The position numbers were made by a program, and so were the translations under genes. A DNA stretch of 64,000 bases from Parcubacteria group bacterium. GTDB lineage: Bacteria > Patescibacteriota > Minisyncoccia > Phycocordibacterales > GCA-002724975. Shown here piece after piece: positions 20,756 to 34,832 of this stretch (positions within the stretch are counted from its first letter, which is position 1; every line of letters begins with the position of its first letter). The notes beneath the pieces are model-generated. The model saw only the letters and a list, made by a program, of their open reading frames with translations. It did not search any database and was not told the origin of the DNA. The DNA lies in contig PBQF01000039.1 in the NCBI GenBank assembly GCA_002724975.1, positions 1,152 to 65,151 of the forward strand, written 5' to 3'.

Positions 20756-20828
20756 ATTATATCACTCTGCTCTGTGCTTGCACGGTGCACTATAGCCACC
20801 CCAAGCTTGGGGTAATGGGTGTGTATGT

Positions 20829-20860
20829 ATGAAAAGGGAACCTTTCTTCGGAAAGGTCCC
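20829..20860 (-). terminator. intrinsic terminator of cassette 4 (GGGACCTTTC-cgaa-GAAAGGTTCCC + TTTTC)
   Basis: Near-perfect 10-11-bp stem at 20836-20860 with a T-tract on the minus strand. Confidence 0.7.
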
Positions 20861-20889
20861 TGTTTAGTTTGCGCCGTAAGACGCCTCTT

Positions 20890-21153
20890 CTAGGCAGAGC
20901 CACATAAAATCGTAGCCTCGCCATCCTCATAAATCAGCTTCCTCCTTCTCTGTGAACACTCACTAAGGAAGCCTGGCGTCTCGGTGAAAATGTCAGCTGG
21001 AGCCATATACCAAGTCAGTAGACCGACAAGACGACCTTCGCTGTCGAGCCTGTGAGCTGCTAGCAACAATTTCTTTTTGTCACGAGCAACACTGATGAAT
21101 GGTCCCTCAATCATCCAGAACTCACCAGATGAAAGCGGTGTCGGCACCACCAT
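20890..21153 (-). CDS. hypothetical small protein (74-87 aa; alternative ATG at 21114), GC-rich cassette 4 gene 2
   Basis: GC3-rich ORF. The ATG at 21112-21114 lies 10 nt after the upstream gene's stop, behind a GGTGAG SD-like element. Confidence 0.45.
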   Translation of the reverse strand: MVVPTPLSSGEFWMIEGPFISVARDKKKLLLAAHRLDSEGRLVGLLTWYMAPADIFTETPGFLSECSQRRRKLIYEDGEATILCGSA

Positions 21154-21328
21154 TTCGCATGACCCAAAGTGATTGGGTAATCTGCGAAGTCAGTTCCGAT
21201 CCCTCCGCTCGCGTCTCTAAGAAGTACGCGAGAAGCACCGCCAACAAAACTCCTACCCCAATAGTGCCCAAGACCAGCTTGAGTACAGTTGAGAAACTCG
21301 GCGCCTTGTCCATCTCTTCTACCTGCAT
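21122..21328 (-). CDS. hypothetical single-TM small membrane protein (about 68 aa), GC-rich cassette 4 gene 1
   Basis: MQVEEMDKAPSFSTVLKLVLGTIGVGVLLAVLLAYFLE... with a GGGGGT SD 5 nt upstream. Confidence 0.45.
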   Translation of the reverse strand: MQVEEMDKAPSFSTVLKLVLGTIGVGVLLAVLLAYFLETRAEGSELTSQITQSLWVMRNGGADTAFIW

Positions 21329-21370
21329 TAATACCCCCATTAAAAGGATGGGCCTAGTTATCCCCCACTG

Positions 21371-21399
21371 ATTAGACCAAAAAGGAAGATTAAAATCAA
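21371..21399 (-). promoter_or_regulatory. sigma70-like promoter of cassette 4 (TTGATT-17-TCTAAT)
   Basis: -35 at 21394-21399 and -10 at 21371-21376 on the minus strand. Confidence 0.45.
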
Positions 21400-21400
21400 G

Positions 21401-31370: not shown

Positions 31371-31703
31371 TTAAGCTTGTCTTTGTGGTGTTCTAAATAG
31401 AAGCCCTTTTATATTGTTTCCTAGAATAAAAACAGCAAGTATAAAAACAGCAACTGAAATTGTCTGAACAACAAGTTCGGTATTCATAAAAGCATATTTA
31501 TAGAAATACAGGACATGACCAGCGTCCATGCTTCCTAGATTCTTGGTGTTTTTGAAGACATTCATCAGAGAAACATTGGAAATAAATCCCCACAATAAGA
31601 TAAGTGTGATGTAAATTTTCAACGCGACTTTGCTAACTGTACTTCTGCAGTAAAAAATGAACTGAATACGTCTCATTATTCTGTTTTTTAATTTTGTTTC
31701 CAT
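31371..31703 (-). CDS. hypothetical membrane protein (possible anti-sigma factor, downstream of sigma gene)
   Basis: 110 aa, 2 TM; position immediately after the ECF-type sigma gene. Confidence 0.3.
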   Translation of the reverse strand: METKLKNRIMRRIQFIFYCRSTVSKVALKIYITLILLWGFISNVSLMNVFKNTKNLGSMDAGHVLYFYKYAFMNTELVVQTISVAVFILAVFILGNNIKGLLFRTPQRQA

Positions 31704-31705
31704 AA

Positions 31706-32305
31706 TTAAATTAAATTGTAACCATTAAGCTTTCGGAATTCTTTTTTGGCCCTGTAAATTCTGGTTTTAATTGCTCCAACAGATAAATTTTCCATTTTGG
31801 CAATTTCTTTCTGTGGTCTCCTTTCTATAAAGTGTAGGTGCAAAATCTTAGATAGAGTTTTCGGTAACTTTACCAAAGCTCTGGCCACATAGTCTGATAC
31901 TTCTTTTTTATGTAAACTCCCCGCCGTATAAGGATCCTCTATAACTTTGGACATATTTTCAGTAAGCTCTGTGATATTTTTTCTTTTCTTTTTCAGTCTC
32001 TGATAATAAGTAAATGAAGTATTAATCAGAATCTTATACCCCCAAGATTTAAAGGAGGCACCTTCCTGTTTTTTAAACTTAGGAGCATTCAAGTAGATTT
32101 TAGTGAATGTTTCTTGAACAATATCTTCAGCATCTTCCTTGCCATGAAGAATAGATCGAGCTTTTCTAAGAAAAGCTTCTTCATAACGAGTAATCAGCAC
32201 GGAAAAAATATCCGGCTTCGATATTGAGATGTTTAAGATTTCTTCATCAGACAAATCCTGATGGTCCACCTTCTCTTCTTTACCCCCTAAATTTAAAAAA
32301 GCCAT
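31706..32305 (-). CDS. RNA polymerase sigma factor, sigma-70 family (ECF-like)
   Basis: Region 2 (DAEDIVQETFTKIY) and region 4 (LSKILHLHFIERRPQKEIAKMENLSVGAIKTRIYRAKKEF). Start placed at the ATG at 32303-32305; the track extension to 32425 overlaps the divergent efp promoter. Confidence 0.7.
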   Translation of the reverse strand: MAFLNLGGKEEKVDHQDLSDEEILNISISKPDIFSVLITRYEEAFLRKARSILHGKEDAEDIVQETFTKIYLNAPKFKKQEGASFKSWGYKILINTSFTYYQRLKKKRKNITELTENMSKVIEDPYTAGSLHKKEVSDYVARALVKLPKTLSKILHLHFIERRPQKEIAKMENLSVGAIKTRIYRAKKEFRKLNGYNLI

Positions 32306-32427
32306 AAATGGGTTATTGCCAGCCCCGCATATGCGGGGACCTAGCAAACTTATAATATCTCGACCCCACTGATTATTGCAACAAGGAAGTTTGAAAAAGG
32401 TTACTAAATTGGTATAGAATAGCAATC

Positions 32428-34144: not shown

Positions 34145-34180
34145 GAAGGACAGACTATCATGTAAATACAGCCTTTTCAA

Positions 34181-34231
34181 GAAAAACAAAACTGCCTAGG
34201 GGTCTTTCGTTTTTGATTAACCCCTGGGCAG
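34181..34231 (-). terminator. intrinsic terminator of cassette 5 (CTGCCCAGGGG / CCCCTAGGCAG stem, 17-nt loop, TTTTGTTTTTC)
   Basis: 10/11-bp stem at 34192-34202 and 34221-34231 with a T-tract on the minus strand. Confidence 0.65.
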
Positions 34232-34249
34232 AAATCAACTTAGTTCTTC

Positions 34250-34723
34250 CTAGATTCTTCTTTGCCTCTGGTAGCACATGGGACAGATGGACTTGCCATC
34301 TTTTGTGCGCGTGGCCACAGACTTGTCCCTCCTGCACAAAGAGCAAGGCTCGTGTGTAGATTTGTCATGGTAGCGGGCTCTCTGGTAGCACATGGGACAG
34401 ATGGACTTGCCATCTTTTGTGCGCGCGGCCACAGACTTGTCCCTCCTGCACAAAGAGCAAGGCTCGTGTGTAGATTTGTCATGGTAGCGGGCTCGCTTAT
34501 AGCACACGGGACAGATGGACTTGCCATCTTTTGTGCGCGTGGCCACAGACTTGACCTCTTCGCACAAAGAGCAAGGCTCGTGTGTAGATTTGTCATGGTT
34601 GCGGGCTTGCATATAGCACGCACGACAAATTAGTTGACCCATCTTACGATTTTGGGCAACTCCTTTCTTTCTTCTACCACAAACACCGCAACGCTGCTGC
34701 TGCCAGTGCCAATTACGTTTCAT
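34250..34723 (-). CDS. tandem zinc-ribbon repeat protein (157 aa; 4 x about 37-aa CxxC...CxxC units), GC-rich cassette 5
   Basis: ATG at 34723 is preceded by GGGAGGAAGG. Repeats of HDKSTHEPCSLCRRDKSVA.RTKDGKSICPMCYQRARY. The underlying 111-bp DNA repeats are about 97% identical. Confidence 0.6.
   Translation of the reverse strand: MKRNWHWQQQRCGVCGRRKKGVAQNRKMGQLICRACYMQARNHDKSTHEPCSLCEEVKSVATRTKDGKSICPVCYKRARYHDKSTHEPCSLCRRDKSVAARTKDGKSICPMCYQRARYHDKSTHEPCSLCRRDKSVATRTKDGKSICPMCYQRQRRI
34262..34640. repeat. 111-bp tandem DNA repeat array (about 3.5 copies) within the zinc-ribbon gene
   Basis: Units begin at 34262, 34373 and 34484 with 2-6 substitutions per copy; they generate spurious ORFs on both strands. 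Confidence 0.9.
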
Positions 34724-34803
34724 TAGGTCGCCTTCCTCCCTTCTGGTTTAAAATAATGAAAAATAAAAAACATGAGTGCCCTGCGAGAGAAGTGTCTTGC
34801 GAG

Positions 34804-34832
34804 AGACTAGCACAGACATTACATATTGTCAA
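34804..34832 (-). promoter_or_regulatory. sigma70-like promoter of cassette 5 (TTGACA-17-TAGTCT)
   Basis: -35 at 34827-34832 overlaps the TatD stop codon; -10 at 34804-34809; about 80-nt leader. Confidence 0.5.

What the first reader, a model, noticed from the sequence alone, without database searches (positions are those of the whole stretch)
34181..34832. Cassette 5: gene for a 157-aa protein made of four near-identical zinc-ribbon repeats, encoded by ~97%-identical 111-bp DNA repeats
The ORF at 34250-34723 (minus strand) starts with a GGGAGGAAGG SD and an ATG. It encodes MKRNWHWQQQRCGVCGRRKK... followed by four tandem units of about 37 aa of the form ...ARYHDKSTHEPCSLCRRDKSVA.RTKDGKSICPMCYQR... 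Each unit carries CxxC-(about 17)-CxxC.

The DNA units starting at 34262, 34373 and 34484 differ by only a few substitutions. This implies very recent duplication or ongoing concerted evolution, and also potential for copy-number variation.

The gene is GC-rich, has its own TTGACA-17-TAGTCT promoter and a long-loop terminator, and sits between tatD and the rpsF-ssb-rpsR operon. The rpsF promoter immediately downstream also uses a TAGTCT -10.

Tandem C4 zinc ribbons of this kind are typical of small nucleic-acid-binding or regulatory proteins. The exact family is not recognisable by eye.
Basis: seen in the sequence. Interest (0 to 1): 0.75.

Follow-up and report, generated by a model that had tools for sequence, protein, structure and literature searches.

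The report
Acquired four-zinc-finger gene, repeat number variable
A small, very basic protein made of four cysteine zinc fingers, three of them nearly identical copies, is encoded by a foreign-looking gene inserted between tatD and rpsF of a Paceibacterota (CPR) bacterium; it belongs to an unnamed family, mostly seen in CPR bacteria, in which the number of fingers changes between near-identical strains.

Summary
The ORF at 34250-34723 (-) is real and intact, and the same sequence is found in at least six independent assemblies.

The repeat period is 114 bp (38 aa), not 111 bp. There are three homogenised units, 90-99% identical at the DNA level, plus one divergent N-terminal unit.

An exhaustive phmmer search finds about 330 relatives (50%-identity cluster representatives). 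No Pfam or NCBIfam model captures the window protein. The commonest architecture in the family is a basic protein of about 145-180 aa with four fingers. All six named genomes that carry a family-specific motif are uncultured MAGs: five Patescibacteria and one Nanoarchaeia.

AlphaFold gives pLDDT 94. Each unit reads as a C4 treble-clef finger of the GATA/LIM type rather than a classical zinc ribbon.

The gene is an inserted cassette. Its GC3 is 0.59 against 0.31 ± 0.035 for the genome (z = 8). Relatives have tatD directly next to rpsF, or a RelB/YafQ pair at the same site.

Unit number varies: 4, 3 or 2 in assemblies of this strain, which could be assembly collapse. It is 9 vs 7 and 7 vs 10 in two tandem paralogues of another species whose flanks are 99% identical.

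The most likely function is nucleic-acid binding. This is inferred, not shown.

The parts
34181..34832 (-). Whole inserted cassette: promoter, leader, ORF and terminator, lying between the tatD stop codon and the native rpsF promoter.
   Evidence: In relatives the tatD-rpsF gap is 28 nt (L017) or 108 nt (L018). L019 has a RelB/YafQ pair at this site. Here the gap is 685 nt. GC3 is 0.59 against 0.31 ± 0.035.
34804..34832 (-). Promoter-like site TTGACA (34832-34827), 17-nt spacer, TAGTCT (34809-34804). The -35 element overlaps the tatD stop codon.
   Evidence: It is an exact match. The same TTGAAA-17-TA[G/A/C]TCT design precedes rpsF here and in three relatives. The pattern is not enriched over shuffles. 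The consensus scanner did not call it, because the -10 matches only 3 of 6 positions of TATAAT.
34775..34806 (-). Two tandem 16-nt direct repeats, TCTCTCGCAAGACACT and TCTCTCGCAGGGCACT. They start inside the -10 element and run into the leader, so they could be an operator.
   Evidence: These are the only two exact matches to the degenerate 16-mer in 64 kb. No tandem repeat of this kind was found upstream of other family members, only weak AT-rich 8-mers in L010 and L013, so function is unproven.
34731..34740 (-). Shine-Dalgarno-like GGGAGGAAGG, ending 7 nt before the ATG.
   Evidence: Read directly from the sequence.
34250..34723 (-). CDS of 157 aa plus stop codon. The protein has pI 9.9, 38 K+R against 13 D+E, and 16 Cys.
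   Evidence: The exhaustive search gives 122 relatives at E <= 1e-10. The AF2 model has pLDDT 94.1.
34616..34690 (-). Finger 1 core (C12-x2-C15-x17-C33-x2-C36). It is the divergent, family-typical N-terminal unit with the 'V.xNRKxGxLxC' pattern.
34494..34607 (-). Repeat unit 2 (residues about 41-78, core CSLCEEVKSVATRTKDGKSICPVC).
   Evidence: It is 89.5% identical to unit 3. Seven of the nine codon differences are non-synonymous.
34380..34493 (-). Repeat unit 3 (residues about 79-116, core CSLCRRDKSVAARTKDGKSICPMC).
34266..34379 (-). Repeat unit 4 (residues about 117-154, core CSLCRRDKSVATRTKDGKSICPMC).
   Evidence: It is 99% identical to unit 3 in the repeat finder register.
34182..34231 (-). 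Intrinsic-terminator-like hairpin (CUGCCCAGGGG ... CCCCUAGGCAG, 18-nt loop) followed by UUUUGUUUUU.
   Evidence: dG -26.6 kcal/mol, z = -4.39, and 0 of 200 shuffles fold as well. The scanner missed it because its loop limit is 8 nt.
34152..34180 (-). Native rpsF promoter TTGAAA-17-TAGTCT. This is context and marks the right-hand boundary of the insertion.
   Evidence: It is conserved as TTGATT/TTGAAA-17-TAATCT/TACTCT in L017, L018 and L019.

Best explanation
**Shown**
- The region is a self-contained, laterally acquired gene cassette: its own promoter-like site, a Shine-Dalgarno sequence, a 157-aa ORF and a hairpin terminator.
- It is inserted at a recurrently used spot between tatD and the rpsF promoter of a low-GC Paceibacterota (CPR) bacterium.
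- The product belongs to an unnamed family of small, strongly basic proteins built from tandem C4 fingers. Among named genomes the family was found only in uncultured Patescibacteria and one Nanoarchaeia MAG.
- The unit signature is E-x-C-x2-C-G-[KR]-x-[KR]-x-V-x2-R-x3-G-x-[PA]-[IVL]-C-x2-C-Y.
- Four fingers is the usual architecture in the family.

**Inferred from the AlphaFold model**
- Each unit binds one Zn through four Cys in a treble-clef fold of the GATA/LIM type: a knuckle, a beta-hairpin and a helix that begins at the second CxxC.
- The units are joined into a fairly rigid rod by the conserved RYHDxSxHE linker.

**Inferred mechanism**
- The array binds nucleic acid, DNA more likely than RNA. 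Contacts would come from the conserved basic residues on the hairpin and helix of successive fingers.
- With no effector domain, it would act as a small regulator or architectural protein. It may repress its own promoter through the two 16-nt direct repeats that overlap the -10 and +1 positions.

**Shown for the family, plausible here**
- Units are gained, lost and homogenised in frame by unequal recombination between the repeats.
- This explains the 90-99% identity of units 2-4 and the 4-, 3- and 2-unit forms seen in assemblies.
For: **The gene is real**
- The ORF is intact.
- It is identical in six independent assemblies, which are 99.98-100% identical to the window over 10 kb.
- The exhaustive search gives 329 relatives at E <= 1e-3 and 122 at E <= 1e-10.
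- Twelve of the 16 Cys columns are invariant and the other four at least 90% conserved in a 38-sequence alignment.
- The AF2 model has pLDDT 94.1 and pTM 0.67.

**It was inserted and looks foreign**
- Relatives conserve the order AI-2E, metG, tatD, rpsF, ssb, rpsR, efp, sigma, recA. Their tatD-rpsF gaps are 28 and 108 nt, and one has a RelB/YafQ pair at the same site.
- GC3 is 0.59 against 0.31 ± 0.035, z = 8.1.
- Other family members are also compositional outliers in either direction: 0.43 vs 0.51-0.52, and 0.48 vs 0.38.

**Taxonomic range**
- The degenerate family motif hit six genomes: five Patescibacteria and one Nanoarchaeia MAG.
- The host's RpsF is named Candidatus Paceibacterota.

**Fold**
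- DSSP on the model puts the second CxxC of each unit at the start of a helix.
- The family profile's best PDB hits are the GATA-3 and GATA-1 double fingers, E = 2-4e-4.

**Nucleic-acid binding (indirect)**
- The window protein has pI 9.9, and nine relatives have pI 9.4-10.3.
- K/R is conserved at unit positions 6, 8, 13 and 27.
- Distant homologous arrays sit in proteins that act on DNA. P0003 carries a GIY-YIG nuclease domain, 64 bits against a cut-off of 22.6.
- In actinobacterial plasmids the arrays lie in ORFs of about 806 aa that RefSeq annotates as site-specific or phage integrase. These follow two tyrosine recombinases and an HTH gene.

**Repeat dynamics**
- L005 lacks exactly 114 bp, giving a 119-aa, 3-unit product.
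- L034/P0001 is an in-register unit-2/unit-4 chimera of 81 aa.
- L022 and L024 have flanks 99.1-99.96% identical, yet differ by 9 vs 7 units and 7 vs 10 units in two tandem paralogues.
- Five of 157 family proteins (the window protein and four others) have unit pairs at least 80% identical, against a median of 43%.
Against: - There is no direct evidence of Zn or nucleic-acid binding.
- The top structural neighbours include protein-binding fingers (LIM, CsfB, ClpX ZBD, RING).
- No neighbouring gene is conserved across 14 loci.
- No operator-like tandem repeat of this kind was found upstream of other family members.
- The promoter and the -10 motif are unverified and not enriched over shuffles.
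- The recombinase nature of the long homologues rests on RefSeq annotation, a sub-threshold Pfam hit (13.2 bits against a cut-off of 27.1) and non-significant Foldseek hits to Cre (E >= 0.2, on a model of pLDDT 66).
- The 3- and 2-unit alleles of this strain could be short-read assembly collapses.
Confidence: 0.55

Rival explanations
1. The array is a protein-protein interaction scaffold or adaptor. It would bind a host or phage protein, for example a sigma factor, a protease or a chaperone client, as LIM domains, CsfB/Gin, the ClpX zinc-binding domain and the DnaJ zinc fingers do. It would not bind nucleic acid.
For: - Tandem LIM domains (PINCH1, LMO2) lead the Foldseek list.
- LIM is the best single-sequence PDB hit, E = 0.0046.
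- The DnaJ Cys-rich domain appears in the profile search, E = 0.017.
- The variable residues between units lie at positions predicted to be exposed.
Against: - All of these matches are non-significant.
- The consistently high pI and the conserved K/R positions fit nucleic acid better.
- The fusions seen in the family are to DNA enzymes.
- No partner gene is conserved next to it.
Confidence: 0.2
2. The gene is a mobile or phage-derived accessory gene ('moron') used in conflict, for example an anti-defence or host-takeover factor. Its rapid gain and loss of repeats would be driven by an arms race. Its biochemical activity could still be binding of nucleic acid or protein.
For: - It is inserted at a hot spot that holds a toxin-antitoxin pair in a relative.
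- Its composition is foreign.
- The homologue P0152 lies in a phage-like contig with a terminase and LAGLIDADG genes.
- The L007 homologue sits next to an ORF pair that, read by eye only and never scanned, looks like a nucleotidyltransferase/HEPN-type module.
- Copy number varies between near-identical strains.
- Tandem paralogue pairs occur in L009, L013, L022 and L024.
Against: - There are no PADLOC hits and no PHROG hit with a matched stretch passing threshold (best whole-protein E = 7.6e-5).
- tblastn finds nothing in 50,697 phage genomes.
- The family motif has no hits in IMG/VR.
- No mobility gene or clear target-site duplication flanks the cassette.
- Pooled pN/pS between units is 0.45-0.74, not above 1.
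Confidence: 0.15
3. The protein is a zinc or thiol buffer: a Cys-rich store of metal or a redox sensor, with 16 Cys and about 4 Zn per 157 aa. It would have no specific macromolecular target.
For: - Cys makes up 10% of the protein.
- The gene sits next to ribosomal protein genes. In other bacteria zinc economy involves ribosomal paralogues, which is general knowledge and was not tested here.
Against: - The adjacency to rpsF comes from insertion and is not conserved.
- The scaffold shows position-specific conservation of non-ligand residues (V10, R13, G17, I20, Y25).
- The confident rigid fold is typical of recognition modules.
Confidence: 0.05
4. The repeat array, or the ORF itself, is an assembly artefact or a non-coding repeat.
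For: - Shorter forms with 3 and 2 units occur in other assemblies.
- Two other frames across the repeats are also open.
- The exact protein is absent from the 15-billion-protein collection, and it is not called as a gene in some records.
Against: - The identical 4-unit sequence is present in L001-L004 and L006, from NCBI, ENA and JGI projects.
- The exact product is indexed in 49 blocks of the collection.
- Only this frame has homologues and a model of pLDDT 94.
- Collapse would shorten an array, not lengthen it, so four units is if anything a lower bound.
Confidence: 0.03

Closest known systems
GATA-type C4 zinc fingers (GATA-1/3/4, AreA), which are treble-clef DNA-binding fingers
   Same: - Both have four Cys ligands with C-x2-C-x16/17-C-x2-C spacing.
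- Both have a knuckle, a beta-hairpin and a helix, followed by a basic segment.
- The Arg, Gly and Ile/Leu of '...R-x3-G-x2-[ILV]-C-x2-C' align with 'WRR-x3-G-x2-L-C-N-A-C' in GATA.
- The family profile's best PDB hits are the GATA-3 and GATA-1 double fingers, E = 2-4e-4.
   Different: - There is no Pfam GATA hit at E <= 10.
- Units 2-4 have x16 spacing rather than x17/18.
- The TPLWRR and NACGLY motifs are absent.
- There are four to more than ten tandem units, with a structured 14-residue helix-linker between them.
- The host is prokaryotic (CPR).
- The matches are Cys-driven and marginal, so homology is not established.
LIM domains (CRP, PINCH, LMO2), which are pairs of GATA-like treble-clef fingers used for protein binding
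   Same: - Both are tandem treble-clef fingers forming an elongated rod.
- They are the best single-sequence PDB hit (E = 0.0046) and the best Foldseek hits (E = 2.6e-3).
   Different: - LIM has eight ligands, C2HC plus C4, with a 2-residue spacer between the fingers. Here every finger is C4 and the fingers are separated by a helix and a linker.
- The Pfam LIM score is 19.2 bits, below the 22.9 cut-off.
- LIM domains bind proteins and are eukaryotic.
Pfam DZR_2 / DZR 'double zinc ribbon' (PF18912, PF12773)
   Same: - This is the nearest Pfam neighbour of the family.
- 15 of 38 small relatives hit DZR_2 at E <= 0.1.
- Longer relatives pass its cut-off: P0003 scores 65 bits, P0002 32 bits.
   Different: - The window protein gives no DZR_2 hit at all.
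- The model covers two generic CxxC pairs. It does not cover this unit signature, the linker or the four-finger architecture.
Zinc-finger arrays inside the integrase-annotated ORFs of about 806-881 aa on actinobacterial plasmids (Streptomyces, Rhodococcus, Mycolicibacterium)
   Same: - The unit type is the same: 'C-x2-C-G-x-x-[KR]-x-V-x-x-R-x3-G-x-P-[ILV]-C-x2-C'.
- BLASTP gives 34% identity over 125 aa, pairwise E = 4e-11.
- phmmer E-values range from 3e-18 to 8e-10.
   Different: - Those arrays are embedded in large proteins with a C-terminal domain annotated as a tyrosine recombinase. They follow two recombinase genes and an HTH gene.
- The window protein is the array alone.
- The recombinase fold could not be confirmed here.
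Variable-number tandem-repeat nucleic-acid binders (TAL effectors, eukaryotic C2H2 zinc-finger arrays). This is a resemblance in behaviour only.
   Same: - Both have near-identical tandem units of 34-38 aa.
- Differences between units cluster at a few exposed positions.
- Units are gained and lost in frame between close relatives.
   Different: - The fold and the ligands are unrelated.
- No evidence exists for a code of one unit per base or per triplet.
- pN/pS between units is below 1.

Membership tests
Unnamed family of tandem C4 fingers (defined here) | Significant full-length sequence similarity to other members | tested here: met
   The exhaustive phmmer search gives 329 hits at E <= 1e-3 and 122 at E <= 1e-10. 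The best hits that are not the same gene reach E = 2.8e-45 to 2.7e-30.
Unnamed family of tandem C4 fingers (defined here) | Unit signature E-x-C-x2-C-G-[KR]-x-[KR]-x-V-x2-R-x3-G-x-[PA]-[IVL]-C-x2-C-Y, with all Cys conserved | tested here: met
   Twelve of the 16 Cys columns are invariant and the other four at least 90% conserved in 38 sequences. The logo was built from 465 units. The window units match except at position 5, where R or E replaces G.
Unnamed family of tandem C4 fingers (defined here) | Distinct N-terminal unit ('V.xNRKTGxLxC') followed by internal units, with the modal form having four units in 140-185 aa and a basic pI | tested here: met
   Forty-two of 150 hits are four-unit proteins of 135-190 aa. 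The window's unit 1 reads VAQNRKMGQLIC. The pI is 9.9.
Pfam DZR_2 (PF18912), double zinc ribbon | HMM score at or above the gathering cut-off of 27 bits | tested here: not met
   The window protein gives no DZR_2 hit at E <= 10. Fifteen of 38 relatives hit at E <= 0.1, most of them below the cut-off.
Classical zinc ribbon fold | Both CxxC pairs lie on beta-hairpin knuckles of a three-stranded sheet | tested here: not met
   In the AF2 model (pLDDT 94) the second CxxC of every unit starts a 10-residue helix (H33-42, H71-80, H109-118, H147-155). This is treble-clef topology. It is a prediction, not an experimental structure.
GATA-type zinc finger (PF00320) | Pfam HMM match, and C-x2-C-x17/18-C-x2-C spacing with the TPLWRR and NACGLY motifs | tested here: not met
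   There is no Pfam GATA hit. Spacing is x17 in unit 1 and x16 in units 2-4. The profile-to-PDB hit is only E = 2.3e-4, with a domain i-E of 0.03.
GATA-type zinc finger (PF00320) | Sequence-specific DNA binding | not testable with these tools
   This needs EMSA, SELEX or DAP-seq.
LIM domain (PF00412) | Two contiguous fingers (C2HC plus C4/C3H/C3D) separated by 2 residues, with a Pfam score of at least 22.9 bits | tested here: not met
   The score is 19.2 bits. All fingers are C4 and are separated by a helix and linker of about 14 residues.
Toxin-antitoxin, defence or phage protein families | A match to a PADLOC or PHROG model, or presence in phage genomes | tested here: not met
   PADLOC gives none. 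PHROGs give only weak whole-protein hits, best E = 7.6e-5, with no matched stretch passing threshold. tblastn finds no phage match. IMG/VR has 0 motif hits.

The most novel reading that the evidence does not exclude
The family is a prokaryotic counterpart of TAL-effector or C2H2 arrays. It would be a modular zinc-finger array of variable length in which each unit of 34-38 aa reads a short stretch of DNA or RNA through a few repeat-variable residues. In the window gene these are unit positions 5-7, 12, 23 and 26; in L022/L024 they are positions 9-12, 22 and 26. Unit gain, loss and conversion would then retarget the protein within populations of CPR bacteria or their phages, for example in host-symbiont or phage conflict. 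The two 16-nt direct repeats at the gene's own promoter would be one such target.
Probability: 0.08. Interest if true: 0.85.

Novelty: new variant of a known kind. Interest (0 to 1): 0.5.

Why it matters
CPR (Patescibacteria) genomes are small and rich in genes of unknown function.

This finding defines a recognisable and apparently undescribed family. It has about 330 cluster representatives and no dedicated Pfam or NCBIfam model. Its members are small, basic proteins made of tandem C4 treble-clef fingers with a confident predicted fold.

The family moves between genomes. Members are compositional outliers in both directions, and this one sits at an insertion hot spot. The number of units also changes in frame between strains that are 99% identical.

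If the array binds nucleic acid modularly, it would be a compact natural scaffold for programmable recognition, and a marker of fast-evolving regulation or conflict in CPR bacteria.

Even on the conservative reading, the family gives a name and a testable function to a recurrent class of 'hypothetical protein'. It also links that class to the zinc-finger arrays inside integrase-like proteins on actinobacterial plasmids.

Tried and rejected
**Homology and database searches**
- The word-indexed homology search with the single protein found nothing. The exhaustive search was needed.
- The exact 157-aa and 119-aa sequences are not in the 15-billion-protein collection.
I replaced it with a hand-made degenerate DNA pattern for RYHDxSxHExCxxC.
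- The exact 38-mer of the gene start is absent from JGI metagenome contigs, so unit counts could not be sampled there.
- A further look-up with RpsF returned only one de-duplicated place.
- The afdb50 structure library was unavailable.

**Phage and defence links**
- PHROGs gave only weak whole-protein hits with no matched stretch passing threshold, PADLOC gave nothing, phage genomes gave no match and IMG/VR gave nothing.
- Only P0152 lies in a phage-like context.

**C-terminal domain of the long actinobacterial homologues**
- A five-sequence profile found nothing in Pfam or in PDB sequences.
- The AF2 model reached only pLDDT 66.
- The Foldseek top 20 are nearly all Cre, Tre or lambda integrase, but with E >= 0.2.
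- Pfam Phage_integrase scores 13.2 bits against a cut-off of 27.1.
- I therefore report 'recombinase' as an annotation plus weak hints, not as shown.

**Other leads**
- No gene is a conserved neighbour across 14 loci.
- No operator-like tandem repeat of the window's kind lies upstream of other members.
- Rfam finds nothing in the cassette.
- The TAGTCT-type promoter pattern is not enriched in the window.
- The generic scanner did not call the promoter or the terminator because of its thresholds.
- There is no paralogue elsewhere in the 64-kb window.
- The NCBIfam Cas12f2 model gives a local hit to unit 1 (E = 9e-7, 28 bits against a cut-off of 450). I treat this as a generic finger resemblance.
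- The short flanking direct repeats (D4, D5) are too weak to call a target-site duplication.
- Literature searches found no description of the family.
Full report

The minus strand of 34250-34723 holds an intact 157-aa ORF. It starts with ATG and is preceded by GGGAGGAAGG. The protein is MKRNWHWQQQRCGVCGRRKK... and has 16 Cys arranged in four C-x2-C-x16/17-C-x2-C units.

Tandem Repeats Finder reports one array at 34266-34607. It has a period of 114 bp, 3.0 copies, 95% matches, no indels and a score of 612. The repeat finder gives copies starting at 34266, 34380 and 34494 with 100/99/90% identity.

So the period is 114 bp (38 aa), not 111 bp. Only three units are near-identical. In codon register, unit 3 vs 4 is 95.6% identical and unit 2 vs 3 is 89.5%. 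The N-terminal unit is only about 40% identical at the DNA level.

- TTGACA-17-TAGTCT is present exactly at 34832-34804, and TTGAAA-17-TAGTCT precedes rpsF.
- The 3' hairpin (34231-34192) plus U-tract folds at -26.6 kcal/mol, z = -4.4.
- The generic scanner missed both signals for threshold reasons, and the promoter pattern is not enriched over shuffles. These remain sequence features, not demonstrated signals.

**2. Is it an assembly artefact?**

The exact protein is indexed in 49 blocks of public assemblies. Six loci from different NCBI, ENA and JGI projects are 99.98-100% identical to the window over 10 kb. Five of them carry exactly the same 761-bp tatD-rpsF interval.

One assembly (L005, GCA_024712145.1) lacks exactly 114 bp, giving a 119-aa protein with three units. 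An 888-bp ENA scaffold (L034, P0001) has an 81-aa, two-unit form. Its second unit is an in-register chimera of unit 2 (5' part) and unit 4 (3' part).

These shorter forms are what either unequal recombination or short-read collapse would produce, and I cannot separate the two. Collapse can only shorten an array, so four units is a lower bound for this strain.

**3. Genomic setting: an inserted cassette**

The host is a low-GC CPR bacterium. Its RpsF cluster is named Candidatus Paceibacterota by NCBI.

Three relatives with 60-67% RpsF identity keep the same gene order: AI-2E, metG, tatD, rpsF, ssb, rpsR, efp, sigma, recA. Their tatD-rpsF intervals differ from the window:
- 28 nt in L017.
- 108 nt in L018.
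- A RelB/YafQ toxin-antitoxin pair at exactly this position in L019.

The rpsF promoter design TTGAAA/TTGATT-17-TA[G/A/C]TCT is conserved in all four genomes, directly upstream of rpsF. The 652-bp cassette at 34181-34832 therefore lies between the tatD stop codon and the native rpsF promoter, and it brings a promoter-like site of the same design.

Its GC3 is 0.59, and 0.66 in the repeat part. The 42 other long ORFs of the window have GC3 of 0.31 ± 0.035 with a maximum of 0.38, so z = 8.1.

I found no integrase, no convincing target-site duplication and no terminal inverted repeats. The window holds several other GC-rich islands carrying small genes.

**4. The family**

Pfam and NCBIfam give nothing above threshold for the window protein, and the word-indexed search found nothing.

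The exhaustive phmmer search against 1.84 billion cluster representatives gave 329 hits at E <= 1e-3 and 122 at E <= 1e-10. Forty-two of the best 150 are proteins of 135-190 aa with exactly four units.

In a 38-sequence alignment, 12 of the 16 Cys columns are invariant and the other four are at least 90% conserved. The first unit has its own conserved pattern (V.xNRKTGxLxC), which the window protein shares.

A logo from 465 units gives the signature E-x-C-x2-C-G-[KR]-x-[KR]-x-V-x2-R-x3-G-x-[PA]-[IVL]-C-x2-C-Y-x-[RK]. The nearest Pfam neighbour of the family is DZR_2, hit by 15 of 38 members at E <= 0.1.

A degenerate DNA pattern for RYHDxSxHExCxxC hit six species genomes. Five are Patescibacteria (Saccharibacteria, Paceibacterota) and one is a Nanoarchaeia MAG. 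It also hit eleven metagenome contigs.

Other points about the family:
- Members are standalone genes, and no neighbour is conserved across 14 loci.
- Tandem paralogue pairs occur in L009, L013, L022 and L024.
- One member lies in a phage-like contig.
- Several members are compositional outliers relative to their contigs, in either direction.

**5. Structure**

AlphaFold2 with the 38-sequence alignment gives mean pLDDT 94.1 and pTM 0.67. Each unit is a knuckle, a short beta-hairpin and a 10-residue helix that starts at the second CxxC. That is treble-clef topology, not a classical zinc ribbon.

No structural match is significant:
- Foldseek ranks tandem LIM domains first, E = 2.6e-3.
- The family profile's best PDB sequence hits are the GATA-3 and GATA-1 double fingers, E = 2-4e-4. 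The conserved R, G and I/L align with WRR...G..LC in GATA.

I therefore describe the unit as a GATA/LIM-like C4 treble-clef finger, without claiming homology.

**6. Function**

This is inferred, not shown.
- The window protein has pI 9.9, with 38 K+R against 13 D+E. Nine relatives have pI 9.4-10.3.
- Basic residues are conserved at unit positions 6, 8, 13 and 27.
- Distant relatives of the array occur in proteins that act on DNA. P0003 carries a GIY-YIG domain above Pfam's cut-off.
- On Streptomyces, Rhodococcus and Mycolicibacterium plasmids, tblastn hits fall inside ORFs of about 806 aa that RefSeq names site-specific integrase or phage integrase family protein. Each follows two tyrosine recombinase genes and an HTH gene.

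I could not confirm the recombinase fold. There were no Pfam or PDB sequence hits. Phage_integrase scored 13.2 bits against a cut-off of 27.1. The AF2 model had pLDDT 66, and its Foldseek list was dominated by Cre and lambda integrase at E >= 0.2.

On balance the array most likely binds nucleic acid. With no effector domain, the standalone protein would act as a small regulator or architectural protein.

Two 16-nt direct repeats (TCTCTCGCARGRCACT, 34806-34775) overlap the -10 and +1 positions of its own promoter. They are unique in the window, which makes autoregulation a testable guess. Other members lack repeats of this kind.

The protein-adaptor rival (LIM, CsfB, ClpX ZBD) is not excluded.

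**7. Repeat dynamics**

Near-identical internal units (at least 80% aa identity) occur in 5 of 157 family proteins (the window protein and four others), against a median best pair of 43%.

The clearest case of true copy-number change is L022 vs L024. Their flanks are 99.1-99.96% identical. Paralogue 1 has 9 vs 7 units and paralogue 2 has 7 vs 10 units, all in frame. The pooled synonymous difference between those units is about 0.4-0.6, which makes assembly collapse an unlikely cause.

Differences between units cluster at a few predicted surface positions:
- In the window gene: positions 5-7 (EEV vs RRD), 12, 23 and 26.
- In L022/L024: positions 9-12, 22 and 26.

Pooled pN/pS between units is 0.45-0.74, which is relaxed but does not show positive selection.

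**8. Verdict**

It is a laterally acquired member of an unnamed family of variable-number tandem C4 treble-clef finger proteins that among named genomes was found mainly in Patescibacteria. The mechanism, nucleic-acid binding, is plausible but untested.

I rate the novelty as a new variant of a known kind, namely tandem zinc-finger proteins. Interest is moderate. The bold reading, a modular and retargetable recognition array, is not excluded but is unlikely on present evidence.

Noticed in passing
window ~10150-10770, ~12020-12730, ~13620-14000, ~20800-21400: There are four more GC-rich islands (GC 0.47-0.56 against about 0.36) in this low-GC genome, three of them next to tRNA genes. The two read in full each have a sigma-70-like promoter, a strong SD, an ORF of about 90 aa and a hairpin terminator. 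Examples are the ORF at 10407-10679(-) with GC3 0.82, and the ORF at 12330-12602(-) with GC3 0.64 behind TTGACA-17-TATAAT. None has a Pfam hit. They look like the same kind of acquired small-gene cassette as the one studied here.
   Followed up: partly
window 34145-34832; L017:2821-2848; L018:3893-4000; L019:1323-1978: The tatD-rpsF intergenic site is a recurrent insertion point. It is empty in two relatives, holds a RelB/YafQ toxin-antitoxin pair with its own TTGACA promoter in a third, and holds the zinc-finger cassette here. In both filled cases the insert starts at the tatD stop codon and leaves the rpsF promoter intact.
   Followed up: yes
window 34152-34180 and L017, L018, L019 upstream of rpsF: The rpsF promoter has a conserved and unusual design, TTGAAA/TTGATT-17-TA[G/A/C]TCT, in four Paceibacterota genomes. 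The acquired cassette's promoter uses the same TAGTCT -10.
   Followed up: partly
whole window vs L001-L006: The same strain, at least 99.98% identical over 10 kb, appears in unrelated public assemblies: NCBI GCA_002896295.2, GCA_024712145.1 and GCA_036012405.1, ENA ERZ9811112 and ERZ27245226, and JGI 3300005508. Its exact SSB protein is indexed in 159 blocks of the collection. Such clonality across projects suggests either a very widespread clone or a laboratory or reagent-water contaminant.
   Followed up: no
L031:4260-6683 (Streptomyces mirabilis pI), L032:4272-6692 (Mycolicibacterium aubagnense plasmid): On actinobacterial plasmids, distant homologues of the finger array lie inside ORFs of about 806 aa annotated as integrases. 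These are the last gene of a conserved block: integrase/tyrosine recombinase, tyrosine recombinase, HTH regulator, array protein. Forty plasmid records match, mostly Rhodococcus and Streptomyces.
   Followed up: partly
L022:5949-7869 vs L024:1681-3703: Two tandem paralogues of the family sit in two metagenome contigs whose flanks are 99% identical. They differ by whole units, 9 vs 7 and 7 vs 10, in frame.
   Followed up: yes
upstream 50-70 nt of family genes in L007, L009, L021, L022/L024, L027 (and weakly window 34724-34770): Several family members from different genomes share a leader motif, GTTCTTTTCCAAxCC...AACC...GGAGGTGA, just before the start codon. This could be a leader that travels with the gene. 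Its significance was not tested.
   Followed up: partly
window 34608-34717 (unit 1 of the protein): NCBIfam's Cas12f2 model (NF049972) gives a local hit to the first finger: E = 9e-7, 28 bits against a cut-off of 450, profile positions 52-90. It also hits two relatives weakly. This is probably a generic similarity between C4 fingers.
   Followed up: no
window 31371-32425: An ECF-type sigma factor gene (Sigma70_r2/r4_2) is followed by a 110-aa hydrophobic ORF that could be an anti-sigma factor. The pair is conserved in the relatives.
   Followed up: no
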